Positions 1,549 to 41,197 of a stretch of DNA of 64,000 nucleotides are shown piece after piece. Below the pieces are notes generated by a model that was given only the letters and a program-made list of their open reading frames with translations, did not search any database and had not been told where the DNA came from. The number at the start of each line of letters is the position of its first letter. Position 1 is the first letter of the stretch. Position numbers and translations under genes: made by a program. The stretch comes from Escherichia coli (GTDB lineage Bacteria > Pseudomonadota > Gammaproteobacteria > Enterobacterales > Enterobacteriaceae), in the NCBI RefSeq assembly GCF_003018255.1, contig NZ_CP027440.1; one strand, 5' to 3'.

Positions 1549-1764
1549 TTATCATCATTCTTATTACCCATTTTTAATGAATTACAGGGCTTTTAATACA
1601 CCGCAGCAATAACAGGTTGAGTTATCTCAACACAAAGTAATAACCGTTAAGGGTGTAGCCTATGATCAACACAAATATGAAATATTGGTCCTGGATGGGC
1701 GCATTTTCTCTGTCGATGCTCTTCTGGGCCGAACTCCTCTGGATCATTACTCACTGATCCCTGA

Positions 1765-1788
1765 CCCCGCTGCGGCGGGGTTTTCATT
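1765..1788 (+). terminator. intrinsic-terminator-like hairpin (CCCCGC-tgcg-GCGGGG followed by TTTTCATTT) in the yciX–acnA spacer
   Basis: 6-bp GC stem, 4-nt loop and T-tract read directly from the sequence; lies about 135 bp upstream of the acnA start codon. Confidence 0.5.
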
Positions 1789-1920
1789 TGCTTTGCCACA
1801 AGGTTTCTCCTCTTTTATCAATTTGGGTTGTTATCAAATCGTTACGCGATGTTTGTGTTATCTTTAATATTCACCCTGAAGAGAATCAGGGCTTCGCAAC
1901 CCTGTCATTAAGGAGGAGCT

Positions 1921-19440: not shown

Positions 19441-21425
19441 TGTTTTCGCGCTTTTTTGTTCGCCGCCCGGTCTTTGCCTGGGTTATCGCCATTTTGATTA
19501 TGTTGGCGGGGATTCTGGCTATTCGCACATTGCCCGTCGCGCAATATCCTGACGTTGCACCGCCGACCATTAAAATTTCAGCCACTTATACTGGTGCTTC
19601 TGCCGAAACGCTGGAGAACAGCGTGACTCAGGTTATCGAGCAACAACTCACTGGGCTTGATAATTTACTCTATTTCAGCTCAACCAGTAGCTCTGATGGT
19701 TCGGTCAGTATTAATGTGACCTTTGAACAAGGTACCGATCCAGATACTGCACAGGTTCAGGTGCAGAATAAAATTCAGCAGGCGGAGTCGCGCCTACCCA
19801 GCGAAGTGCAGCAAACGGGTGTTACGGTGGAGAAATCACAAAGCAACTTTTTGCTGATTGCTGCCGTGTATGACACCACTGACAAAGCCTCCAGTTCGGA
19901 TATCGCCGACTGGCTGGTCAGTAACGTTCAGGACCCCCTGGCGCGTGTTGAAGGTGTGGGGAGTCTGCAAGTCTTTGGCGCGGAATACGCTATGCGCATC
20001 TGGCTCGACCCGGCCAAACTGGCGTCTTACTCGCTGATGCCTTCAGACGTGCAAAGTGCTATTGAAGCGCAAAACGTGCAGGTTACTGCCGGGAAAATAG
20101 GGGCATTGCCTTCACCGGATACTCAGCAACTGACCGCAACGGTACGTGCGCAGTCTCGCTTGCAGACGGTGGATCAGTTCAAAAATATTATCGTGAAAAG
20201 CCAGTCAGACGGCGCAGTTGTTCGTATAAAAGATGTGGCTCGCGTTGAGATGGGCAGTGAAGATTATACCGCTATTGGCAAACTTAACGGTCACCCGTCT
20301 GCCGGGGTTGCTGTAATGCTTTCGCCCGGTGCGAATGCGCTGAATACGGCGACGCTGGTCAAGGATAAGATTGCCGAATTCCAGCGGAACATGCCGCAGG
20401 GATACGACATCGCATACCCGAAAGACAGCACTGAATTTATTAAAATCTCCGTAGAGGACGTAATTCAGACGCTGTTTGAAGCCATCGTATTGGTGGTTTG
20501 CGTGATGTATTTATTCCTGCAAAACCTGCGTGCCACACTGATTCCGGCGTTAGCTGTCCCCGTCGTTTTGCTGGGCACATTCGGCGTTCTTGCGTTGTTT
20601 GGCTATTCGATTAATACCCTGACGTTGTTTGCAATGGTGCTGGCGATCGGCTTGTTGGTGGACGATGCCATTGTGGTGGTGGAGAACGTCGAACGCATTA
20701 TGCGTGACGAAGGGTTGCCCGCGCGTGAAGCCACGGAAAAATCAATGGGCGAGATTTCTGGCGCACTGGTTGCCATTGCGCTGGTGTTGTCAGCCGTATT
20801 CCTGCCGATGGCCTTCTTTGGGGGATCTACGGGGGTAATTTATCGTCAGTTCTCCATCACCATCATCTCCGCAATGCTGCTTTCCGTGGTGGTGGCATTG
20901 ACCTTGACTCCCGCCCTGTGCGGTTCCGTCCTCCAGCATGTTCCACCACATAAAAAAGGCTTTTTCGGCGCATTTAACCGCTTTTACCGCCGTACTGAAG
21001 ATAAATATCAGCGAGGCGTAATTTATGTCCTGCGCCGTGCAGCCCGAACGATGGGGCTTTATGTCGTGCTGGGTGGTGGAATGGCACTGATGATGTGGAA
21101 GCTGCCGGGCAGTTTCTTACCCACTGAAGACCAGGGCGAAATCATGGTGCAGTACACGCTGCCGGCCGGGGCGACCGCTGCCCGTACAGCAGAAGTGAAT
21201 CGCCAGATTGTTGACTGGTTCCTGATTAACGAGAAAGCAAATACCGATGTCATCTTTACCGTTGATGGTTTCAGTTTTAGCGGCAGCGGACAGAACACCG
21301 GGATGGCGTTTGTTTCGTTGAAAAACTGGTCTCAACGTAAAGGGGCAGAAAACACCGCCCAGGCTATCGCCCTACGGGCTACCAAAGAGCTGGGCACAAT
21401 TCGTGTGCCACGGTATTTGCGATGA
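19440..21425 (+). CDS. RND multidrug efflux permease, AcrB-like, N-terminal ~660-aa fragment ending at a frameshift-induced stop
   Basis: Start overlaps the adaptor stop (TGATG); AcrB-like over its length (MFSRFFVRRPVFAWVIAILIMLAG…); terminates seven codons after the frame change, where an intact AcrB continues. Confidence 0.8.
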   Translation: MFSRFFVRRPVFAWVIAILIMLAGILAIRTLPVAQYPDVAPPTIKISATYTGASAETLENSVTQVIEQQLTGLDNLLYFSSTSSSDGSVSINVTFEQGTDPDTAQVQVQNKIQQAESRLPSEVQQTGVTVEKSQSNFLLIAAVYDTTDKASSSDIADWLVSNVQDPLARVEGVGSLQVFGAEYAMRIWLDPAKLASYSLMPSDVQSAIEAQNVQVTAGKIGALPSPDTQQLTATVRAQSRLQTVDQFKNIIVKSQSDGAVVRIKDVARVEMGSEDYTAIGKLNGHPSAGVAVMLSPGANALNTATLVKDKIAEFQRNMPQGYDIAYPKDSTEFIKISVEDVIQTLFEAIVLVVCVMYLFLQNLRATLIPALAVPVVLLGTFGVLALFGYSINTLTLFAMVLAIGLLVDDAIVVVENVERIMRDEGLPAREATEKSMGEISGALVAIALVLSAVFLPMAFFGGSTGVIYRQFSITIISAMLLSVVVALTLTPALCGSVLQHVPPHKKGFFGAFNRFYRRTEDKYQRGVIYVLRRAARTMGLYVVLGGGMALMMWKLPGSFLPTEDQGEIMVQYTLPAGATAARTAEVNRQIVDWFLINEKANTDVIFTVDGFSFSGSGQNTGMAFVSLKNWSQRKGAENTAQAIALRATKELGTIRVPRYLR

Positions 21426-31117: not shown

Positions 31118-32503
31118 TTACGTTTCGCTCACCGGCGTTCTGTCACCATCATACAACGGCACTTTGCGATAGCGGCGGATCAGATACCACAAATATGCGC
31201 CGCCTAACGAAGCCCATACCAGACCGAGTGTCAGTGACGTTGACTCGAGGTTAACCCACAACACACCCACCGTCAGCGCGCCAACCAGCGGCATCAGCAA
31301 ATAGTGGAAGTGATCCTTCCAGCTTTTATTCATTCCTTTACGCCGCCAGAAATGATTAAACACCGACAGATTTACGAAGGTAAATGCCACCAGAGCACCG
31401 AAGTTAATCAATGCTGTCGCGGTGACTAAATCAAAGAACAGCGCTGACAACGCGACAATCCCGACCATAATGACGTTCAGTGCCGGAGTCCGCCATTTCG
31501 GGTGCACATAGCCAAACACGCGCTCCGGAAACACATTGTCACGCCCCATCACATACAGCAGACGCGACACGCTGGCGTGCGACGCCAGGCCAGACGCTAA
31601 CGTGTTCACAAACGTGGTACAGAGGAAAATCGACTGGAAGAGCTTGCCGCCGACGTATAGCGCAATTTCAGGCAGTGCGGCGTCCGGGTCTTTAAAGCGG
31701 CTGATATCGGGAAAGAACAGCTGCATAAAGAACGACGCAGCGATAAAGATAACGCCGCCGTATACCGCCGTCAGGAAGATGGCTTTCGGGATCACGCGTG
31801 CGGCGTCCGGCGTCTCTTCCGAAAGCGTGGTCACCGCATCGAAACCGAGGAAGGAGAAACAGACAATCGTCGCCCCGGTAATAATTGGGATCAGGTGCGC
31901 GTTCTCGCTGATAAACGGCTGAAGTGACCAGACGGTGCCAACGCCTTCTCCTTTATGCAGTCCCTGAACAACCAGGAAGATAAACACCACCATGATGGAG
32001 ATTTGCACCAGTACAAACAAGGTATTGAAGTTAGCGACCAGGTTGACGCTCTTCAGATTCGCGGCGGTTAAAATGGCAACGAAGGTTACCACCCACACCC
32101 ACGGCGGCACTTCCGGGAAGAGGGCGGAGAGATAGATTTTCGCCAACAAAACGTTGATCATCGGCAAAAAGAGATAATCCAGCAGCGATGACCAGCCGAC
32201 CATAAATCCGACGTGCGGGTTAATCGACTTTTGCGCGTAGGTATAGGCCGAACCGGCCTCCGGAAACTGGCGAACCAGTTTGCCGTAGCTGATAGCGGTA
32301 AACAGCACGCCCGCCAGCGCCAGCAAATAGGACGCCGGAACGTGACCGTCGCTAATGCCGGAGACAATACCAAAAGTATCAAATACGGTCATCGGCGTGA
32401 GATAGGCCAGACCCATCATCACCACCTGCCACAATTTCAGTGATTTTCGCAGACGGGTTTTGCCAGGTTGCGCAGCAATATTCAGTGGTGAATTAATAGC
32501 CAT
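31118..32503 (-). CDS. puuP: putrescine:H+ symporter PuuP (APC superfamily)
   Basis: ORF 31118..32557; start at the internal Met ([18 protein letters not shown]…), 461 aa, 12 TM. Confidence 0.92.
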
Positions 32504-32805
32504 AATTGCTGCCTCCCCTGCGTAATAAGGTTTGCGGTCGTGTCGACCTGAAATCAAACCTGTTTAGCAAGGGAAGCAGAGGGGGCGGAGTCCAGTCAGT
32601 CGCAGGAGGGGCGCATACGCAGCCTCCCTCGCCATGCGGGGATTTAATCATCGGCATCATCTCATTTCCTCGTCACAGTCTTAATCGTTAACGGAAGCCC
32701 GTTGCCGCCTGCGCTCCATAACGCGACATCCGGGAAATGTCTGGATTACCAGCAAATGTCAGGCCTGGCTCCGCTCAGGCCGATGAAACAACCCCGCAAG
32801 GGGTA

Positions 32806-34224
32806 TTACGCGTTTTTCAACATCCACTCAATTTCTGTTTCTGTGATGAGGCGCTCAAACTGCAACAGCTCATCATTTTTACAGGCGTGATAGACATGGC
32901 AGAAGCGTTCGCCTAAATAGCGGCGCAGGTGATCATTCTCGATAAACTCACCCAGGGCATCGCTCTGGCGAATCGGGAAGGGTAAGCCTTCCTGTTCCAG
33001 CCCGTTACCTTCGACTTCTTCCTGTAATGGCAGTTCGTTATCAAGGCCATGCAAAATACCGGCAAAAATCGCCGCCATCACCAGATACGGGTTGGCATCG
33101 GCACCCGCCACGCGATATTCCACGCGGTGATTATGGCGATCGCCGCAGGGAATACGCAGGGCGACGGTGCGGTTGTTATGGCCCCACGACGCCTGCGTCG
33201 GTACATACATCCCCGGCTGGAAGCGGCGATACGAGTTCACGTTTGGTGCCAGCAACGCCATTGATGACGGCATCAGGTCAATCATCCCGGCGAGCATCTT
33301 TTTCAGCAGCGGCGAATCTTCGCCTTCCGCGTCAGAAAGCACGTTCTCGCCACGATTATTTTGCATACTGATATGGATATGCATCCCGCTGCCCGCGTGC
33401 TCTTCATACGGCTTCGCCATAAAAGTGGCGTGCATCTTATGCTTTTCTGCCATCAGACGCACCAGGCGTTTTAGTGCCAGCGCATCATCGCAAGCTTCCA
33501 GCACGTTATCGGTATGGTAAAGATTGATTTCAAACTGACCTGGCGAGGCCTCGGCGACCGCGCCATCTGCCGGAATCAGCTGTAACTGCGCCAGCTCATC
33601 AATATCATTGAGCACGTCGGCGAAGTGGTTGAGGTTATCAACGGAGTAAACCTGGCTTTGTGTATTGCGGTCATCGGTGCCGGGCGCGCAGGGCGGTTGC
33701 AGATATCCTTCAGCGTCGCGCTGGCGATCCAGTAAATAGAACTCCAGCTCTACCGCTACGACCGGGAACAATCCGCGCTGGCGCAGCTGCTGCCACAGGC
33801 GGTTAAGAACGTTCCGCGGCTCAACGTCAAAGGGAGCGCCATCTTCATCGACCATGGTCAGGAGCATCTGACCTATAAACTCTGGATCGGCGGCAGAAGG
33901 GGTTAAGGAACCGAGAACAGGAACACAGGTACGATCCGGCTCGCCCATTTCCTGACCCAGGCCCGCTTCTTCTACTACGTTGCCCAGAATATCCATTGCA
34001 AACACCGAGGCCGGGAAATAACACCCTTTCTCGAGCTTCTTCAGGCTTGAAACAGGAATACGTTTTCCACGGAAGCAACCATTCAAATCGGTAAGTAAAA
34101 CATCAACATATTGCGTATTCGGGTAGCGCTCCAGGTAGCGTTTCACTTCCTGCGTAAAGGCGCTACCCCGCCTCTCTTCTGACTGCTGAACAAAGTTCTC
34201 TACTTCAACGATATTGGTTTCCAT
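32806..34224 (-). CDS. puuA: gamma-glutamylputrescine synthetase (glutamine-synthetase family)
   Basis: ORF 32806..34302; start at the internal Met (METNIVEVENFVQQSEERRG…), 472 aa. Confidence 0.93.
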   Translation of the reverse strand: METNIVEVENFVQQSEERRGSAFTQEVKRYLERYPNTQYVDVLLTDLNGCFRGKRIPVSSLKKLEKGCYFPASVFAMDILGNVVEEAGLGQEMGEPDRTCVPVLGSLTPSAADPEFIGQMLLTMVDEDGAPFDVEPRNVLNRLWQQLRQRGLFPVVAVELEFYLLDRQRDAEGYLQPPCAPGTDDRNTQSQVYSVDNLNHFADVLNDIDELAQLQLIPADGAVAEASPGQFEINLYHTDNVLEACDDALALKRLVRLMAEKHKMHATFMAKPYEEHAGSGMHIHISMQNNRGENVLSDAEGEDSPLLKKMLAGMIDLMPSSMALLAPNVNSYRRFQPGMYVPTQASWGHNNRTVALRIPCGDRHNHRVEYRVAGADANPYLVMAAIFAGILHGLDNELPLQEEVEGNGLEQEGLPFPIRQSDALGEFIENDHLRRYLGERFCHVYHACKNDELLQFERLITETEIEWMLKNA

Positions 34225-34435
34225 GATTCTTCGCCTTTGGTTTGTTTTCCGCTCGTTATCAAAGCGTAAAATATAATGACCACCATTCGAATCTGTATGC
34301 AAACTAAATGTTTGTCAAATGTTAAATTGAGTTTGCAAAAATGAAAATCCACTGCTAGATTGAAAAAATATTGAACATAAAGGTCATTTAAAGCGCAGTA
34401 ATGGCGATAATTTAGTCCACTTTGTGAGATTGAGC

Positions 34436-35200
34436 ATGGAAAATATAATGAACAATCCGGTTATCGGTGTCGTAATGTGCAGGAACAGGCTTAAGGGTCA
34501 TGCGACCCAGACTCTGCAAGAAAAGTACCTGAATGCCATCATCCACGCAGGCGGCTTGCCAATTGCGCTGCCACATGCGCTGGCGGAACCGTCATTACTT
34601 GAACAACTTTTGCCGAAACTCGATGGTATTTATCTTCCTGGTAGTCCCAGCAATGTGCAGCCGCACCTATATGGTGAAAACGGCGATGAGCCTGACGCCG
34701 ATCCCGGGCGTGATCTTCTGAGCATGGCGTTAATTAATGCCGCACTCGAAAGGCGCATCCCCATTTTCGCCATCTGCCGGGGTTTACAGGAACTGGTGGT
34801 GGCAACCGGTGGTTCGTTGCATCGCAAGCTGTGCGAACAGCCTGAATTGCTGGAACATCGGGAAGATCCCGAACTGCCGGTGGAGCAGCAATATGCGCCG
34901 TCGCATGAAGTTCTGGTTGAAGAGGGGGGATTACTGTCTGCGTTGTTACCTGAATGTAGCAACTTTTGGGTAAACTCTCTGCATGGACAAGGGGCGAAGG
35001 TCGTTAGCCCACGGTTGCGTGTTGAAGCTCGCTCGCCGGATGGCTTAGTTGAGGCGGTTAGCGTCATCAATCATCCTTTTGCGCTGGGCGTACAGTGGCA
35101 CCCGGAATGGAACAGTAGCGAGTACGCGCTTTCGCGTATATTGTTCGAGGGCTTTATCACCGCTTGTCAGCACCATATCGCTGAAAAACAGCGACTCTGA
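34436..35200 (+). CDS. puuD: gamma-glutamyl-gamma-aminobutyrate hydrolase (class-I glutamine amidotransferase-like)
   Basis: ORF 34424..35200; start MENIMNNPVIGVV…; catalytic Cys context …IFAICRGLQ…. Confidence 0.93.
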   Translation: MENIMNNPVIGVVMCRNRLKGHATQTLQEKYLNAIIHAGGLPIALPHALAEPSLLEQLLPKLDGIYLPGSPSNVQPHLYGENGDEPDADPGRDLLSMALINAALERRIPIFAICRGLQELVVATGGSLHRKLCEQPELLEHREDPELPVEQQYAPSHEVLVEEGGLLSALLPECSNFWVNSLHGQGAKVVSPRLRVEARSPDGLVEAVSVINHPFALGVQWHPEWNSSEYALSRILFEGFITACQHHIAEKQRL

Positions 35201-35226
35201 CCACTACAGTTTAAGGAAATGCAAAT

Positions 35227-35784
35227 ATGAGTGATGAGGGACTGGCGCCAGGAAAACGCTTGTCGGAAATCCGCCAGCAGCAGGGGCTTTCACAACGTCG
35301 TGCCGCCGAACTCTCCGGGCTGACTCACAGTGCTATCAGTACGATAGAACAAGATAAAGTCAGCCCTGCCATCAGTACGCTGCAAAAGCTGCTGAAGGTG
35401 TATGGTCTGTCACTCTCGGAATTCTTTTCCGAGCCGGAAAAACCTGATGAGCCGCAGGTCGTCATTAATCAGGACGACTTAATTGAGATGGGCAGTCAGG
35501 GTGTGTCAATGAAGCTGGTTCATAACGGTAACCCGAATCGCACGCTGGCGATGATCTTTGAAACGTACCAGCCGGGCACAACCACTGGGGAAAGAATTAA
35601 GCATCAGGGTGAGGAAATAGGCACTGTACTGGAAGGTGAAATTGTTCTGACGATTAATGGTCAGGATTATCATCTCGTCGCGGGGCAAAGTTATGCCATT
35701 AATACCGGCATCCCGCACAGTTTCAGTAATACGTCGGCAGGTATTTGCCGAATTATCAGCGCCCATACGCCCACCACGTTTTAA
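35227..35784 (+). CDS. puuR: HTH (XRE)–cupin repressor of the puu genes
   Basis: 185 aa; N-terminal XRE-type HTH and C-terminal cupin. Confidence 0.93.
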   Translation: MSDEGLAPGKRLSEIRQQQGLSQRRAAELSGLTHSAISTIEQDKVSPAISTLQKLLKVYGLSLSEFFSEPEKPDEPQVVINQDDLIEMGSQGVSMKLVHNGNPNRTLAMIFETYQPGTTTGERIKHQGEEIGTVLEGEIVLTINGQDYHLVAGQSYAINTGIPHSFSNTSAGICRIISAHTPTTF

Positions 35785-35933
35785 TCTTTTTGTTCTGTAA
35801 GCCGGGTAAGCGCAATGTGCCCGGCAATCCATAAAGAATGTCGCCAGAAATAAACGGGCATGCGGCCCGGGGATCTCTGCGCCCTGACGTTCACAAACTG
35901 CATATATCTGATAGACGTGAAACAGGAGTCATA

Positions 35934-37421
35934 ATGAATTTTCATCATCTGGCTTACTGGCAGGATAAAGCGTTAAGTCTCGCCATTGAAACCCGCTTAT
36001 TTATTAACGGTGAATATACTGCTGCGGCGGAAAATGAAACTTTTGAAACCGTTGATCCGGTCACCCAGGCACCGCTGGCGAATATTGCCCGCGGCAAGAG
36101 CGTCGATATTGACCGTGCGGTGAGCGCAGCACGCGGCGTGTTTGAACGTGGCGACTGGTCACTCTCTTCTCCGGCTAAGCGTAAAGCGGTGCTGAATAAA
36201 CTCGCCGATTTAATGGAAGCTAACGCTGAAGAACTGGCGCTGCTGGAAACGCTCGACACCGGCAAACCGATTCGTCACAGCCTGCGTGATGATATTCCCG
36301 GCGCGGCGCGCGCCATTCGCTGGTACGCCGAGGCTATCGACAAAGTGTATGGCGAAGTGGCGACCACCAGTAGCCATGAGCTGGCGATGATCATGCGTGA
36401 ACCGGTCGGCGTGATTGCCGCCATCGTGCCGTGGAACTTCCCGCTGCTGCTGACTTGCTGGAAACTCGGCCCGGCGCTGGCGGCGGGAAACAGCGTGATC
36501 CTAAAACCGTCTGAAAAATCACCGCTCAGTGCGATTCGTCTCGCGGGGCTGGCGAAAGAAGCGGGGCTGCCGGATGGTGTGTTGAACGTGGTGACGGGTT
36601 TTGGTCATGAAGCCGGGCAGGCGCTTTCGCGCCATAACGATATCGATGCCATTGCCTTTACTGGCTCAACCCGCACCGGGAAACAGCTGCTGAAGGACGC
36701 GGGCGACAGCAACATGAAACGCGTCTGGCTGGAAGCGGGCGGCAAAAGCGCCAACATCGTTTTCGCCGACTGCCCGGATTTGCAACAGGCGGCAAGCGCC
36801 ACCGCCGCAGGCATTTTCTACAACCAGGGCCAGGTGTGCATCGCCGGAACGCGTTTGTTGCTAGAAGAGAGCATCGCCGATGAATTCTTAGCCCTGTTAA
36901 AACAGCAGGCGCAAAACTGGCAGCCGGGCCATCCACTTGATCCCGCAACCACCATGGGCACCTTAATCGACTGCGCCCACGCCGACTCGGTCCATAGCTT
37001 TATTCGGGAAGGCGAAAGCAAAGGGCAACTGCTGCTGGATGGCCGTAACGCCGAGCTGGCTGCCGCCATCGGCCCGACGATCTTTGTGGATGTAGACCCG
37101 AATGCGTCCTTAAGCCGCGAAGAGATTTTCGGTCCGGTGCTGGTGGTCACGCGTTTCACATCAGAAGAACAGGCGCTACAGCTTGCCAACGACAGCCAGT
37201 ACGGACTTGGCGCGGCGGTATGGACGCGCGACCTCTCCCGCGCGCACCGCATGAGTCGCCGCCTGAAAGCCGGCTCCGTCTTCGTCAATAACTACAACGA
37301 CGGCGATATGACCGTGCCGTTTGGCGGCTATAAGCAGAGCGGCAACGGGCGCGACAAATCCCTGCATGCCCTTGAAAAATTCACCGAACTGAAAACCATC
37401 TGGATAAGCCTGGAGGCCTGA
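35934..37421 (+). CDS. puuC: gamma-glutamyl-gamma-aminobutyraldehyde dehydrogenase (NAD(P)-dependent aldehyde dehydrogenase)
   Basis: ORF 35838..37421; start at internal Met (MNFHHLAYWQDK…), 495 aa; catalytic Cys motif …QGQVCIAGTR…. Confidence 0.92.
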   Translation: MNFHHLAYWQDKALSLAIETRLFINGEYTAAAENETFETVDPVTQAPLANIARGKSVDIDRAVSAARGVFERGDWSLSSPAKRKAVLNKLADLMEANAEELALLETLDTGKPIRHSLRDDIPGAARAIRWYAEAIDKVYGEVATTSSHELAMIMREPVGVIAAIVPWNFPLLLTCWKLGPALAAGNSVILKPSEKSPLSAIRLAGLAKEAGLPDGVLNVVTGFGHEAGQALSRHNDIDAIAFTGSTRTGKQLLKDAGDSNMKRVWLEAGGKSANIVFADCPDLQQAASATAAGIFYNQGQVCIAGTRLLLEESIADEFLALLKQQAQNWQPGHPLDPATTMGTLIDCAHADSVHSFIREGESKGQLLLDGRNAELAAAIGPTIFVDVDPNASLSREEIFGPVLVVTRFTSEEQALQLANDSQYGLGAAVWTRDLSRAHRMSRRLKAGSVFVNNYNDGDMTVPFGGYKQSGNGRDKSLHALEKFTELKTIWISLEA

Positions 37422-37422
37422 A

Positions 37423-38703
37423 ATGACCGAACATACCAGCAGTTACTACGCCGCCAGTGCGAATAAATACGCGCCATTCGACACGCTGAATGAGTCGATT
37501 TCCTGCGACGTTTGCGTGGTCGGTGGCGGCTATACCGGGCTGTCTTCCGCGCTGCATCTGGCGGAAGCGGGCTTTGACGTGGTGGTTCTTGAAGCCTCAC
37601 GCATCGGCTTCGGCGCAAGCGGACGCAACGGCGGGCAGCTTGTGAACTCCTACAGCCGCGACATCGACGTCATTGAAAAAAGCTACGGCATGGACACCGC
37701 CCGTATGCTCGGCAGCATGATGTTCGAAGGCGGCGAGATCATCCGCGAACGTATCAAACGTTATCAGATTGACTGCGACTACCGCCCCGGCGGCCTGTTT
37801 GTGGCGATGAATGATAAACAGCTCGCGACTCTGGAAGAGCAGAAAGAGAACTGGGAACGCTACGGCAATAAACAGCTGGAGCTGCTGGACGCCAACGCTA
37901 TTCGCCGCGAGGTCGCCAGCGATCGCTACACTGGTGCGCTTCTGGATCACAGCGGTGGGCATATTCATCCGCTAAACCTCGCCATTGGCGAAGCGGACGC
38001 CATCCGCCTGAACGGAGGGCGCGTGTATGAGCTTTCTGCCGTGACGCAGATCCAGCACACCACGCCAGCCGTGGTGCGGACTGCCAATGGTCAGGTGACG
38101 GCGAAGTATGTGATTGTCGCCGGGAATGCGTATCTGGGCGATAAAGTAGAGCCGGAACTAGCGAAACGCAGCATGCCGTGCGGCACGCAGGTGATCACCA
38201 CCGAGCGGCTGTCGGAAGATTTAGCTCGTTCGCTGATCCCGAAAAACTACTGTGTGGAAGACTGTAACTATCTTCTTGATTACTACCGTCTTACCGCCGA
38301 TAACCGCCTGTTGTACGGCGGCGGCGTGGTCTACGGCGCACGCGACCCGGACGATGTTGAGCGCCTTGTGGTGCCGAAACTGCTGAAAACCTTCCCGCAA
38401 CTGAAGGGCGTGAAAATTGATTACCGCTGGACGGGCAACTTCCTGCTGACCCTGTCACGCATGCCGCAGTTTGGTCGCCTCGATACCAACATCTACTACA
38501 TACAGGGCTACAGCGGCCACGGCGTCACCTGTACCCACCTCGCCGGGCGTTTGATTGCTGAACTGCTGCGCGGTGACGCCGAGCGTTTCGACGCCTTCGC
38601 CAATCTGCCGCATTACCCGTTCCCCGGCGGGCGCACGCTGCGCGTTCCGTTTACCGCGATGGGCGCGGCTTATTACAGCCTGCGCGATCGTCTGGGCGTT
38701 TAA
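37423..38703 (+). CDS. puuB: gamma-glutamylputrescine oxidase (FAD-dependent)
   Basis: 426 aa; N-terminal FAD-binding motif (VCVVGGGYTGLSSA). Confidence 0.93.
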   Translation: MTEHTSSYYAASANKYAPFDTLNESISCDVCVVGGGYTGLSSALHLAEAGFDVVVLEASRIGFGASGRNGGQLVNSYSRDIDVIEKSYGMDTARMLGSMMFEGGEIIRERIKRYQIDCDYRPGGLFVAMNDKQLATLEEQKENWERYGNKQLELLDANAIRREVASDRYTGALLDHSGGHIHPLNLAIGEADAIRLNGGRVYELSAVTQIQHTTPAVVRTANGQVTAKYVIVAGNAYLGDKVEPELAKRSMPCGTQVITTERLSEDLARSLIPKNYCVEDCNYLLDYYRLTADNRLLYGGGVVYGARDPDDVERLVVPKLLKTFPQLKGVKIDYRWTGNFLLTLSRMPQFGRLDTNIYYIQGYSGHGVTCTHLAGRLIAELLRGDAERFDAFANLPHYPFPGGRTLRVPFTAMGAAYYSLRDRLGV

Positions 38704-38740
38704 TTTCCGATTAACAGTGAAGAGTCAAAAGGTGTGAAAC

Positions 38741-40006
38741 ATGAGCAACAATGAATTCCATCAGCGTCGTCTTTCTGCTACCCCACGCGGGGTTGGCGTG
38801 ATGTGTAACTTCTTCGCCCAGTCGGCAGAAAACGCCACGCTGAAGGATGTAGAGGGCAACGAATATATCGATTTCGCCGCAGGCATTGCGGTACTGAATA
38901 CCGGGCATCGCCACCCTGATCTGGTCGCGGCGGTGGAACAGCAATTGCAACAGTTTACCCACACGGCGTATCAGATTGTGCCGTACGAAAGCTACGTCAC
39001 GCTGGCGGAGAAAATTAACGCCCTTGCCCCGGTGAGCGGGCAGGCTAAAACTGCGTTCTTCACCACCGGTGCGGAAGCGGTGGAGAACGCGGTGAAAATC
39101 GCCCGCGCCCATACCGGACGCCCTGGCGTGATTGCGTTTAGCGGCGGCTTCCACGGTCGTACATATATGACCATGGCGCTGACCGGAAAGGTCGCGCCGT
39201 ACAAAATCGGCTTCGGCCCGTTCCCCGGTTCGGTATATCACGTACCTTATCCGTCAGATTTACACGGCATTTCAACGCAGGACTCCCTCGACGCCATCGA
39301 ACGCTTGTTTAAATCGGACATTGAAGCGAAGCAGGTGGCGGCGATTATTTTCGAACCGGTTCAGGGCGAAGGCGGTTTCAACGTTGCGCCAAAAGAGCTG
39401 GTTGCCGCCATTCGCCGCCTGTGCGACGAGCACGGCATTGTGATGATTGCCGATGAAGTGCAAAGCGGCTTTGCGCGTACCGGTAAAATGTTTGCCATGG
39501 ATCACTACGCCGATAAGCCGGACTTAATGACGATGGCGAAAAGCCTCGCAGGCGGGATGCCGCTTTCGGGCGTGGTCGGTAACGCGAATATTATGGACGC
39601 GCCCGCGCCGGGCGGGTTGGGTGGTACCTACGCCGGGAACCCGCTGGCGGTGGCTGCCGCGCACGCTGTGCTCAACATTATCGACAAAGAATCACTCTGT
39701 GAACGCGCGAATCAACTGGGCCAGCGCCTGACAAACACGTTGATTGATGCCAAAGAAAGCGTTCCGGCCATCGCGGCGGTACGCGGTCTGGGGTCTATGA
39801 TTGCGGCAGAGTTTAACGATCCGCAAACGGGCGAGCCGTCAGCGGCGATTGCACAGAAAATCCAGCAACGCGCGCTGGCGCAGGGGCTGCTTCTGCTGAC
39901 CTGTGGCGCATACGGCAACGTGATTCGTTTCCTGTATCCGCTGACCATCCCGGATGCGCAATTCGATGCGGCAATGAAAATTTTGCAGGATGCGCTGAAC
40001 GATTAA
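38741..40006 (+). CDS. puuE: 4-aminobutyrate aminotransferase (PLP-dependent class III)
   Basis: 421 aa; class-III aminotransferase signature. Confidence 0.93.
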   Translation: MSNNEFHQRRLSATPRGVGVMCNFFAQSAENATLKDVEGNEYIDFAAGIAVLNTGHRHPDLVAAVEQQLQQFTHTAYQIVPYESYVTLAEKINALAPVSGQAKTAFFTTGAEAVENAVKIARAHTGRPGVIAFSGGFHGRTYMTMALTGKVAPYKIGFGPFPGSVYHVPYPSDLHGISTQDSLDAIERLFKSDIEAKQVAAIIFEPVQGEGGFNVAPKELVAAIRRLCDEHGIVMIADEVQSGFARTGKMFAMDHYADKPDLMTMAKSLAGGMPLSGVVGNANIMDAPAPGGLGGTYAGNPLAVAAAHAVLNIIDKESLCERANQLGQRLTNTLIDAKESVPAIAAVRGLGSMIAAEFNDPQTGEPSAAIAQKIQQRALAQGLLLLTCGAYGNVIRFLYPLTIPDAQFDAAMKILQDALND

Positions 40007-40021
40007 TAGCCCAACGCAATA

Positions 40022-40106
40022 ATGTCTGATGCGCTGCGCTTATCAGGCCTGCAAACAACGTATTGATTATGTATGCCGGATAAGGCGTTCACGCCGCATC
40101 CGGCAA
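40022..40106. repeat. BIME-like pair of REP elements in opposite orientation between puuE and pspF
   Basis: TGATGCGCTGCGCTTATCAGGCCTGC (40027..40052) and GCCGGATAAGGCGTTCACGCCGCATCCGGCA (40074..40104), both REP consensus-like. Confidence 0.8.
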
Positions 40107-40125
40107 GTTGTATTGCCCAACTTCG

Positions 40126-41103
40126 CTAAATCTGGTGCTTTTTCAACAACGCGCGGAACTGATGATAGGTTAACCCCAGTAATTCAGCCGCGCGCTTCTG
40201 GTTATATTTCCCTTGTTGCAAACTGAGTTGCAGCAACTCTTTTTCCTGCTGCATCTGAAACTCACGTAAATCCAGCGGCAGTGTTGGAAGCGAGGTGATT
40301 TCTGAAACGGCGATAGCGTCTTCAGGCGGACGCCGTTTAAAGGGATCAATAATAATGTCATCAAGCGGATAATCGCTGGTGCCGTGGCGATATACTGAAC
40401 GTTCCACCACGTTTTTCAATTCACGAATATTTCCCGGCCAGCGATAATTCAGCAATGTTTCTCTGGCGCGCTCCGTAAACCCCGGGAACAGAGGCAGCTT
40501 GATTTCCCGACACATCTGGATGGCAAAGTGTTCTGCCATCAGCATAATGTCGCTTTCGCGCTCGCGCAGGGGTGGCAGTTGCACAACATCAAAAGCCAGC
40601 CGGTCGAGCAGGTCAGCGCGAAAAGTGCCTTCATTGACCATCGCCGGGAGATCGGCATTCGTCGCGCATACCAACCGCACATTCACCTGCAATGGCTGGC
40701 TACCGCCAACGCGCTCCAGTTCACCGTACTCAATCACACGCAATAATTTTTCCTGCACCATCATCGGTGCCGTAGCGAGTTCATCAAGAAATAGCGTACC
40801 GCCATCGGCACGTTCAAATCTCCCAGGATGACGTTTTTGCGCACCGGTAAACGCCCCCGCTTCGTGACCAAACAGTTCGGAATCCAGCAGATTTTCATTT
40901 AACGCCGCGCAGTTAAGGGAAATAAACGGCCCTTGCCAACGGGAGGAGAGATAATGCAGGCGGCTGGCAATCAACTCTTTACCGGTGCCGCGTTCGCCGA
41001 TGATGAGCACCGGTTTATCCAGTGGTGCGAGATGCGAAACCTGTTCCAGCACTTCGAGAAAGCTATTCGCCTCACCAAGTAAATTATCTTTGTATTCTGC
41101 CAT
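40126..41103 (-). CDS. pspF: sigma-54-dependent activator PspF (AAA+ bEBP lacking a regulatory domain)
   Basis: ORF 40126..41118; start MAEYKDNLLGEANSF…; Walker A (GERGTGKE), GAFTGA loop, C-terminal HTH. Confidence 0.93.
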   Translation of the reverse strand: MAEYKDNLLGEANSFLEVLEQVSHLAPLDKPVLIIGERGTGKELIASRLHYLSSRWQGPFISLNCAALNENLLDSELFGHEAGAFTGAQKRHPGRFERADGGTLFLDELATAPMMVQEKLLRVIEYGELERVGGSQPLQVNVRLVCATNADLPAMVNEGTFRADLLDRLAFDVVQLPPLRERESDIMLMAEHFAIQMCREIKLPLFPGFTERARETLLNYRWPGNIRELKNVVERSVYRHGTSDYPLDDIIIDPFKRRPPEDAIAVSEITSLPTLPLDLREFQMQQEKELLQLSLQQGKYNQKRAAELLGLTYHQFRALLKKHQI

Positions 41104-41197
41104 GATGAAATTCGCCACTTGTTAGTGTAATTCGCTAATTCATCCTGGCATGTTGCTGTTGATTCTTCAATCAGATCTTTATAAATCAAAAAGATAA

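What the first reader, a model, noticed from the sequence alone, without database searches (positions are those of the whole stretch)
40007..40125. BIME-type REP pair between convergent puuE and pspF
Two REP consensus elements in opposite orientation occupy nearly the whole 119-bp gap between the puuE and pspF stops. Such elements can stabilise upstream mRNA and bind gyrase or IHF. REP-like elements also occur after ymjA and ompG.
Basis: partly seen in the sequence, partly recalled or inferred. Interest (0 to 1): 0.2.

Follow-up and report, generated by a model that had tools for sequence, protein, structure and literature searches.

The report
Known REP pair between puuE and pspF
The 119-base gap between the converging E. 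coli genes puuE and pspF holds an ordinary, already catalogued repeat: two inverted REP hairpin elements around a short linker that carries an IHF-binding motif.

Summary
The window is E. coli. The 119-nt gap (40007-40125) lies between the stops of convergent puuE (+) and pspF (-). It holds two REP elements with their tails facing: a Z1-type REP at 40024-40052 (+; 3 mismatches) and a Y-type REP at 40071-40104 (-; 1 mismatch). Shuffles give no such matches.

A profile built from 73 non-orthologous Y-L-Z1 elements of other enterobacteria matches 40022-40106 end to end (E 4.7e-20). The only differences are two deletions that shorten the usual ~35-nt L linker to 18 nt. The retained core is an exact IHF consensus (40056-40068, -). 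This makes it a BIME-1 (RIB/RIP)-type element, not the gyrase-associated BIME-2.

Each mRNA first meets a forward-oriented REP, 17 or 21 nt after its stop, and there is no intrinsic terminator. The likely role is therefore a 3'-end protective hairpin plus an IHF site. This is inferred, not shown.

The locus is in 5,320 of 5,426 E. coli genomes but is polymorphic. The commonest (K-12) allele has a decayed Y stem, and one strain carries the REP-specific IS1397 in the Y loop.

From memory, this K-12 element was described in 1997 as the goaG-pspF RIB element. It is already known and of low interest.

The parts
40004..40006 (+). puuE (goaG) stop codon TAA; 17 nt upstream of the Z1 REP
   Evidence: ORF 38741..40006; annotated puuE in strain 104 and K-12
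40024..40052 (+). Z1-type REP (palindromic unit), forward orientation for the puuE transcript. The tail is CTGC instead of CTAC.
   Evidence: 3 mismatches to the 29-nt Z consensus, 0 expected by chance. RNA hairpin -10.5 kcal/mol in puuE sense only. The type label was fixed by comparison with the rayT flanks and the L-linker partners.
40053..40070 (-). 18-nt linker: a shortened L motif of BIME-1, with 10-nt and 7-8-nt deletions relative to the ~35-nt consensus
   Evidence: MAFFT and nhmmer alignments to 73-79 Y-L-Z1 copies. The same 10-nt deletion occurs in a non-orthologous E. albertii copy, L046.
40056..40068 (-). Exact IHF consensus WATCAANNNNTTR (AATCAATACGTTG), at the position homologous to the IHF core of the L motif
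   Evidence: 6 matches in 64 kb, 2.55 expected. Homology of position shown. The other 14 alleles sampled have TCG in place of TTG.
40071..40104 (-). Y-type REP, forward orientation for the pspF transcript. The tail is ATAC instead of CTAC.
   Evidence: 1 mismatch to the Y consensus, 0 expected. RNA hairpin -22.9 (pspF sense) and -21.9 (puuE sense) kcal/mol, z -4.9 and -4.6. Sub-threshold Rfam naRNA4 hit. IS1397 is inserted in its loop in strain 98210.
40126..40128 (-). pspF stop codon (TAG on the - strand); 21 nt upstream (in pspF sense) of the Y REP
   Evidence: ORF 40126..41118; annotated pspF = window 40126..41103
40022..40106 (-). Whole composite BIME-1-like element as matched by the family profile
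   Evidence: nhmmer, model positions 2-103, 67.1 bits, E 4.7e-20. blastn to 50+ non-orthologous BIMEs covers only window 40011-40111.

Best explanation
The gap holds a single-copy BIME of the BIME-1 (RIB/RIP) kind. A Y REP and a Z1 REP sit in inverse orientation with their tails facing, joined by a shortened L linker that keeps the IHF-recognition core.

Shown here:
- identity with the repeat family;
- hairpin potential;
- an exact IHF consensus in this strain;
- absence of intrinsic terminators;
- retention across the species together with allelic decay.

Inferred mechanism:
- Transcription of puuE (+) and of pspF (-) runs into the element. Each mRNA first meets a forward-oriented REP, Z1 at 17 nt after the puuE stop and Y at 21 nt after the pspF stop.
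- The REP folds into a stem-loop. After termination further downstream, probably Rho-dependent, 3'-to-5' exonucleases trim back to that hairpin. It then defines and protects the 3' end.
- On the DNA, IHF binds and bends the linker between the two REPs. This may modulate read-through or termination between the convergent genes.

The element itself is a product of the REP/RAYT repeat system. With both GTAG feet mutated, it is probably no longer mobile.
For: Family identity:
- Consensus matches, with 0 matches in any of 100 shuffles.
- Profile match from 73 independent copies, E 4.7e-20, end to end.
- blastn similarity to more than 50 non-orthologous BIMEs, confined to window 40011-40111.
- The intact Y segment matches a median of 34 places per E. 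coli genome.
- The REP-specific IS1397 sits in the Y loop in strain 98210 (specificity from PMC1525189).

Class:
- L linkers pair Y with the 29-nt Z in 73 of 74 cases.
- The 36-nt Z flanks rayT, so it is Z2.
- BIME-1 is defined as y + z1 + L, single copy, with an IHF site (PMC3333891).
- The IHF consensus is exact at 40056-40068.

RNA role:
- Y hairpin -22.9 / -21.9 kcal/mol, z about -4.9 / -4.6. Z1 hairpin -10.5 in puuE sense.
- No intrinsic terminator in the gap.
- REP hairpins are reported to resist exonucleases and to mark the 3' ends of Rho-terminated transcripts (PMC6061677; Newbury 1987 as cited).

Conservation:
- The locus is in 5,320 of 5,426 genomes.
- It is kept after an 8.7-kb deletion of the puu cluster.
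- There is a compensatory G-C to A-T change in the Y stem of that lineage.

From memory only, not retrievable here: Jovanovic & Model 1997 (J Bacteriol 179:3095) described this K-12 locus as a RIB element, with IHF binding in vitro and effects on the 3' ends and stability of pspF transcripts.
Against: - No experiment or transcript data for this locus could be reached. Attempts to retrieve the 1997 paper by search or by id failed, as did a search for pspF with 'extragenic palindromic', and no supplementary files were held for the IHF ChIP-seq or Term-seq papers.
- The linker is half the normal L length.
- The exact IHF consensus is specific to this allele. The other 14 alleles have TCG for TTG.
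- The Z1 hairpin is weak (-10.5 kcal/mol, z -2.0).
- The commonest allele (K-12 type, exact in 2,419 genomes) has three G>A changes that destroy the Y hairpin in puuE sense and weaken it in pspF sense. One allele has almost no Y hairpin (-2.8 / -6.1). An IS insertion is tolerated.
- There is no C-over-G (rut-like) bias downstream on either transcript.
- Both GTAG feet are mutated.
All of this is compatible with a largely neutral relic.
Confidence: 0.8

Rival explanations
1. It is a neutral relic. The BIME was deposited by the REP/RAYT system in a gap where it does no harm, and it has no locus-specific function. Its persistence reflects only the lack of a deletion mechanism.
For: - Both REP feet differ from the GTAG that the RAYT transposase needs (GTAT and GCAG; requirement from PMC3333891).
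- The L linker is truncated.
- The Y stem decays stepwise in the majority lineage, and one allele folds at only -2.8 / -6.1 kcal/mol.
- An IS1397 insertion is tolerated.
- The Z1 stem carries different single mismatches in different lineages.
- The element persists unchanged where puuE has been deleted.
Against: - The locus is retained in 98% of 5,426 genomes.
- A compensatory double change keeps the Y stem in one lineage.
- In K-12-type alleles the hairpin is still kept in pspF sense through G.U pairs (-16.1 kcal/mol, z -3.0).
- From memory, K-12 experiments showed IHF binding and transcript effects.
Confidence: 0.3
2. It is a DNA-level barrier between convergent genes. IHF bound to the linker, or REP-assisted Rho termination, stops read-through. 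This prevents antisense transcription and polymerase collisions between puuE and pspF.
For: - Convergent arrangement with no intrinsic terminator on either strand.
- IHF consensus centred between the REPs.
- BIMEs are reported to attenuate transcription and to assist Rho-dependent termination (cited in PMC2817692, and PMC6061677).
Against: - No C>G rut-like bias downstream of the element.
- The IHF consensus is imperfect in 14 of 15 alleles.
- No data are available on read-through.
Confidence: 0.25
3. It is a preferred DNA gyrase site that relieves the positive supercoiling built up between the two converging transcription units.
For: - Convergent transcription accumulates positive supercoils.
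- REPs were reported to bind gyrase, and gyrase cleaves y-type REPs more often than z2 (PMC6379681).
Against: - Strong gyrase sites are BIME-2 arrays (tandem Y+Z2 with S linkers). This is a single Y+Z1 pair.
- Gyrase cleavage sites are slightly under-represented at IHF sites.
Confidence: 0.07

Closest known systems
BIME-1 / RIB / RIP elements of E. coli (Y REP - L linker with IHF site - Z1 REP)
   Same: - Same two REP types, in the same tail-to-tail inverse orientation.
- Single copy, at the 3' ends of transcription units.
- The linker core aligns with the IHF core of L.
   Different: - The linker is 18 nt instead of about 35, through two deletions.
- The deletion junction creates AATCAA, closer to the IHF consensus than the usual ATTCAA. 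Only 1 of 74 canonical L linkers matches the consensus exactly.
- Both feet deviate from GTAG.
The goaG-pspF RIB element of E. coli K-12 (Jovanovic & Model 1997, J Bacteriol 179:3095; recalled from memory, not retrievable here)
   Same: It is the orthologous locus. The K-12 gap is 119 nt and 98% identical over the 151 nt compared.
   Different: In the window strain all three stem positions that are A in K-12 are G, so the Y stem is intact. A fourth difference in the linker makes the IHF consensus exact.
BIME-2 arrays (tandem Y + Z2, S linkers), e.g. the rayT flanks and REP325/naRNA4
   Same: It shares the Y REP, which gives a sub-threshold Rfam naRNA4 hit of 36.8 bits.
   Different: - No 36-nt Z2 REP, no tandem repetition and no S linker.
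- Gyrase association is therefore not expected.
REP mRNA stabilisers (Newbury et al. 1987) and REP-protected 3' ends of Rho-terminated transcripts (Dar & Sorek 2018, PMC6061677)
   Same: Stable hairpins just downstream of the stop codons, with no intrinsic terminator.
   Different: No 3'-end or half-life data for this locus were available here.

Membership tests
REP / palindromic unit, Y type | About 35-nt imperfect palindrome matching the Y consensus | tested here: met
   33 of 34 identical at 40071-40104 (-), 0 expected by chance. Y-only profile 42.0 bits, E 5e-12.
REP / palindromic unit, Y type | Folds into a stable stem-loop | tested here: met
   -22.9 / -21.9 kcal/mol, z -4.9 / -4.6
REP / palindromic unit (Y and Z1) | Conserved GTAG (CTAC) tetranucleotide at the foot of the palindrome (PMC3333891) | tested here: not met
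   The Y foot is ATAC and the Z1 foot is CTGC, one change each. This argues against current mobility, not against descent from the family.
REP / palindromic unit | Extragenic, highly repeated in the genome | tested here: met
   The element lies wholly between two stop codons. The Y-containing 84-mer matches a median of 34 places per E. coli genome.
REP / palindromic unit | Recognised as a target by the REP-specific insertion sequence IS1397 | tested here: met
   In strain 98210 IS1397 sits in the Y loop, flanked by ATTC on both sides. Specificity from PMC1525189.
REP / palindromic unit, Z1 type | 29-nt Z consensus, which is the partner of L linkers | tested here: met
   26 of 29 identical at 40024-40052 (+). 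The 29-nt Z accompanies 73 of 74 L linkers. The 36-nt Z flanks rayT, so it is Z2.
BIME-1 (RIB/RIP) | One Y and one Z1 in inverse orientation, single copy | tested here: met
   There is no tandem repetition in the gap.
BIME-1 (RIB/RIP) | Long, conserved L linker (about 32-36 nt) | tested here: not met
   The linker is 18 nt. It aligns to the L core with 10-nt and 7-8-nt deletions. Short L derivatives of 24-25 nt exist elsewhere.
BIME-1 (RIB/RIP) | IHF recognition sequence in the linker | tested here: met
   Exact WATCAANNNNTTR at 40056-40068 (-). K-12 and 13 other alleles match 12 of 13 positions.
BIME-1 (RIB/RIP) | IHF protein actually binds | not testable with these tools
   Needs a gel shift, footprint or ChIP. 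The supplements of the IHF ChIP-seq paper are not held.
BIME-2 | Y + Z2 (36-nt) units in tandem arrays with short S linkers; strong gyrase site | tested here: not met
   No Z2 and no tandem copies. Gyrase binding itself is not testable here.
Rfam RF02564 naRNA4 | Score at or above the gathering threshold (59.5 bits) | tested here: not met
   36.8 bits, covering only the Y hairpin

The most novel reading that the evidence does not exclude
The decay of the Y REP in the majority (K-12-type) allele may be shaped by selection at the RNA level. Its three G>A changes, and the related T>C change in another allele, each turn a Watson-Crick pair into a G.U pair in the pspF-sense RNA but into an A.C mismatch in the puuE-sense RNA. 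The hairpin thus survives only as the pspF 3'-end structure (-16.1 versus -8.3 kcal/mol). At the same time the element loses its identity as a DNA repeat, dropping from 34 megablast places per genome to 1. That would be a REP being domesticated into a gene-specific, strand-specific mRNA stabiliser.
Probability: 0.12. Interest if true: 0.3.

Novelty: already known. Interest (0 to 1): 0.1.

Why it matters
It matters little beyond correct annotation. REP/BIME elements are a long-described repeat class in E. coli, with about 600 REPs per genome, and from memory this locus was characterised in K-12 in 1997.

The useful outcomes are:
- A precise classification: Y + Z1 with a shortened L linker, which points to IHF rather than gyrase.
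- The window strain carries an intact Y stem and an exact IHF consensus, unlike K-12. K-12 results on pspF 3'-end stability and IHF binding may therefore not transfer quantitatively to this strain.

Tried and rejected
- **My Z1/Z2 labels.** I first labelled the 29-nt REP as Z2 from memory. This was wrong. The 36-nt Z flanks rayT, which the literature calls Z2, and the 29-nt Z accompanies 73 of 74 L linkers. The element is therefore Z1.
- **Literature on this locus.** Attempts to retrieve the 1997 paper by search or by id found nothing usable, and a search for pspF with 'extragenic palindromic' found nothing relevant. Older BIME papers and the Liang/Deutscher paper are not held. Supplements of the BIME, IHF ChIP-seq and Term-seq papers are not held.
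- **K-12 annotation.** The RefSeq K-12 copy lists no repeat feature in the gap.
- **Rfam.** It has no REP family. The only result was a sub-threshold naRNA4 hit.
- **Intrinsic terminators.** None in the gap.
- **Rut-like C>G bias downstream of the element.** None.
- **Strand-biased substitutions as evidence of RNA-level selection.** The count is 4 against 1 independent events, which is not significant.
- **Orthologues in other species.** None of the 120 loci from the genome-contig scan is orthologous. The age of the insertion outside E. coli was therefore not determined.

Full report
**1. Observation**

The window is E. coli. A 731-nt stretch around the finding is 100% identical to strain 104 and many other genomes, where the flanking genes are annotated puuE and pspF. 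K-12 MG1655 has the same arrangement.

The puuE ORF ends with TAA at 40004-40006. The pspF ORF on the minus strand ends with TAG at 40126-40128.

Two REPs lie in it in opposite orientation:
- 40024-40052 (+): GTCTGATGCGCTGCGCTTATCAGGCCTGC, 3 mismatches to the 29-nt Z consensus.
- 40071-40104 (-): GCCGGATGCGGCGTGAACGCCTTATCCGGCATAC, 1 mismatch to the 34-nt Y consensus.

No match to either consensus occurred in 100 dinucleotide-preserving shuffles of the window.

A Y-type REP at 30675-30708 lies 30 nt downstream of the ymjA stop. A more diverged Y-type REP at 56059-56092 lies 13 nt after the ompG stop, in the short gap before convergent ycjW.

**2. What it is**

To compare the element with the family rather than with a remembered consensus, I scanned the species-representative genome collection for canonical tail-to-tail Y...Z pairs. 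This gave 138 pairs in 120 loci from Escherichia albertii, Citrobacter, Pseudocitrobacter and others.

The linkers fall into two classes:
- 74 are 32-36 nt long, with consensus AAAATCnTGCAAATTCAATATATTGCAGAAACCTT. This is the L motif. In 73 of the 74 it is paired with the 29-nt Z.
- 58 are 10-21 nt long. Many of these occur in tandem arrays, paired with either Z type.

My recalled Z1/Z2 labels turned out to be swapped. In K-12 the rayT (yafM) gene is flanked by Y and the 36-nt Z. Nunvar et al. state that these flanks are Y and Z2 (PMC2817692). The 29-nt form is therefore Z1.

Ton-Hoang et al. define BIME-1 as z1 + y, single copy, with a long conserved L linker that frequently carries an IHF site. 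They define BIME-2 as z2 + y in tandem copies with short S linkers (PMC3333891).

The window element, read on the minus strand, aligns end to end with the Y-L-Z1 consensus. The only structural differences are two deletions in L, of 10 nt and 7-8 nt, which leave ATAA|TCAATACGTTG|TTT.

A profile HMM built from 73 of these independent copies hits 40106->40022 across model positions 2-103, with 67.1 bits and E 4.7e-20. None of the 120 loci is orthologous, because blastn similarity is confined to window 40011-40111. The whole composite, linker included, is therefore a dispersed-repeat family member.

The retained linker core is an exact match to the IHF consensus WATCAANNNNTTR at 40056-40068 (-) (six matches in 64 kb against 2.55 expected). 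It sits at the position homologous to the IHF core of L. The deletion junction creates AATCAA, where canonical L has ATTCAA. Only 1 of 74 canonical L linkers matches the consensus exactly.

Rfam has no REP family. The only hit is a sub-threshold match of the Y hairpin to naRNA4, a REP325-derived RNA (36.8 bits against a threshold of 59.5).

Independent biological confirmation comes from strain 98210. There, IS1397 is inserted in the loop of this very Y REP, flanked by ATTC on both sides. IS1397 is experimentally known to insert specifically into REPs (PMC1525189).

**3. Anatomy relevant to function**

The tails of the two REPs face each other. Each convergent mRNA therefore first meets a REP in its forward orientation:
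- puuE mRNA meets Z1 17 nt after its stop.
- pspF mRNA meets Y 21 nt after its stop.

As RNA, the Y hairpin is strong in both senses (-22.9 and -21.9 kcal/mol; z -4.9 and -4.6). The Z1 hairpin is modest and forms only in puuE sense (-10.5 kcal/mol, z -2.0), because a U.G pair in that sense becomes A.C in the other.

No intrinsic terminator is predicted in the gap on either strand.

The literature reports that REP hairpins resist 3'-to-5' exonucleases, stabilise upstream mRNA, and often mark the steady-state 3' ends of Rho-terminated transcripts (PMC6061677; Newbury 1987 as cited). I found no C-over-G bias downstream on either transcript that would point to a rut site.

Strong gyrase cleavage is a BIME-2 property, and gyrase sites are slightly depleted at IHF sites (PMC6379681). 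IHF is therefore the expected protein partner, not gyrase.

**4. Population picture**

The locus is present with at least 80% coverage in 5,320 of 5,426 complete E. coli genomes. Fifteen alleles were compared.

Linker:
- The window's linker (AAACAACG) is the only one with the exact IHF consensus.
- The other 14 have AAACGACG, which reads TCG in place of TTG.

Y stem:
- It is intact in the window, O157:H7 and one other strain.
- It carries a compensatory GGCG/CGCC to AGCG/CGCT change in a lineage that has lost the puu cluster.
- It decays stepwise by G>A changes on the plus-strand arm in K-12-like alleles.
- In K-12 the Y hairpin is lost in puuE sense (-8.3) but kept through G.U pairs in pspF sense (-16.1, z -3.0).

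Allele frequencies:
- The K-12-type 84-nt segment is exact in 2,419 genomes and matches only one place per genome.
- The window-type segment is exact in at most 953 genomes and matches a median of 34 places.

The strand bias of independent substitutions is 4 against 1, which is not significant.

Other variants:
- An 11-nt indel lies between the puuE stop and Z1 (O157 and the puu-less lineages).
- A clean 8,722-bp deletion (window 31222-39943) removes the puu cluster but leaves the BIME.

**5. Mechanism, rivals and status**

The best-supported reading is a BIME-1/RIB-type element. Its REP hairpins define and protect the 3' ends of the two convergent mRNAs, and its linker binds IHF. The identity is shown here. 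The mechanism is inferred from anatomy and from what is established for the family.

The main rival is that it is a functionally neutral relic. Support for that rival: mutated GTAG feet, a truncated linker, allelic decay, and a tolerated IS insertion.

A barrier or termination role is compatible with the data. A gyrase role is unlikely.

From memory, this exact K-12 locus was published as 'the RIB element in the goaG-pspF intergenic region' (Jovanovic & Model, J Bacteriol 1997), with IHF binding in vitro and effects on pspF transcript 3' ends. I could not retrieve that paper, so it is cited as recollection only.

**6. Verdict**

The element is already known and of low interest.

Noticed in passing
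window 1589-1791 (+): Full-length match to the enterobacterial sRNA family STnc180 (Rfam RF02079; 202.7 bits, E 2.8e-42). It is the only Rfam hit above threshold in the window.
   Followed up: no
window 56059-56092 (+): A diverged Y-type REP (5 mismatches) starts 13 nt after the ompG stop and fills most of the 50-nt gap before convergent ycjW. From memory (Liang, Rudd & Deutscher 2015; paper not retrievable), REPs within about 15 nt of a stop codon can stall terminating ribosomes. If so, this one, unlike the puuE and pspF REPs at 17 and 21 nt, would fall in that range.
   Followed up: partly
window 30675-30708 (+): A single Y-type REP (3 mismatches; foot CAAC) lies 30 nt downstream of the ymjA stop, between ymjA and sapA. 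It is read in inverted orientation by the ymjA transcript.
   Followed up: partly
window 31222-39943; loci L004, L005, L136-L138: Some E. coli lineages carry a clean 8,722-bp deletion running from inside puuP to 63 nt before the puuE stop, with about 4 nt of junction overlap. It removes the whole puu putrescine-utilisation cluster but keeps the BIME next to pspF.
   Followed up: partly
L006 (strain 98210), corresponding to window about 40088-40091: An IS1397-family element (frameshifted transposase) is inserted in the loop of the Y REP, with ATTC on both sides.
   Followed up: yes
window 40061 (linker) and 40079, 40084, 40087 (Y REP arm), compared with K-12 locus L001: The window strain differs from K-12 at four positions inside the element. 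One makes the IHF consensus exact. The other three restore a perfect Y stem. The K-12-type allele is the commonest in the species (2,419 genomes).
   Followed up: yes
window 40007-40023; loci L002-L005: There is an 11-nt indel between the puuE stop and the Z1 REP. O157:H7 and the puu-less lineages read TACGCAGAAGCAGGGnnAACGC, which moves the REP from 17 to 28 nt after the stop.
   Followed up: partly
window 40969-40981 (+): A second exact IHF consensus (AATCAACTCTTTA) lies inside the 5' part of the pspF coding region, about 120-135 nt downstream of the pspF start and so close to the divergent pspF-pspA control region. It could be chance, since 2.55 matches are expected per window.
   Followed up: no
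window about 19700-25096 (L007 1-5397): An RND efflux permease, an outer-membrane efflux subunit and an MFS transporter gene are annotated next to sapF in strain 104. I did not check whether K-12 has them at this position.
   Followed up: no
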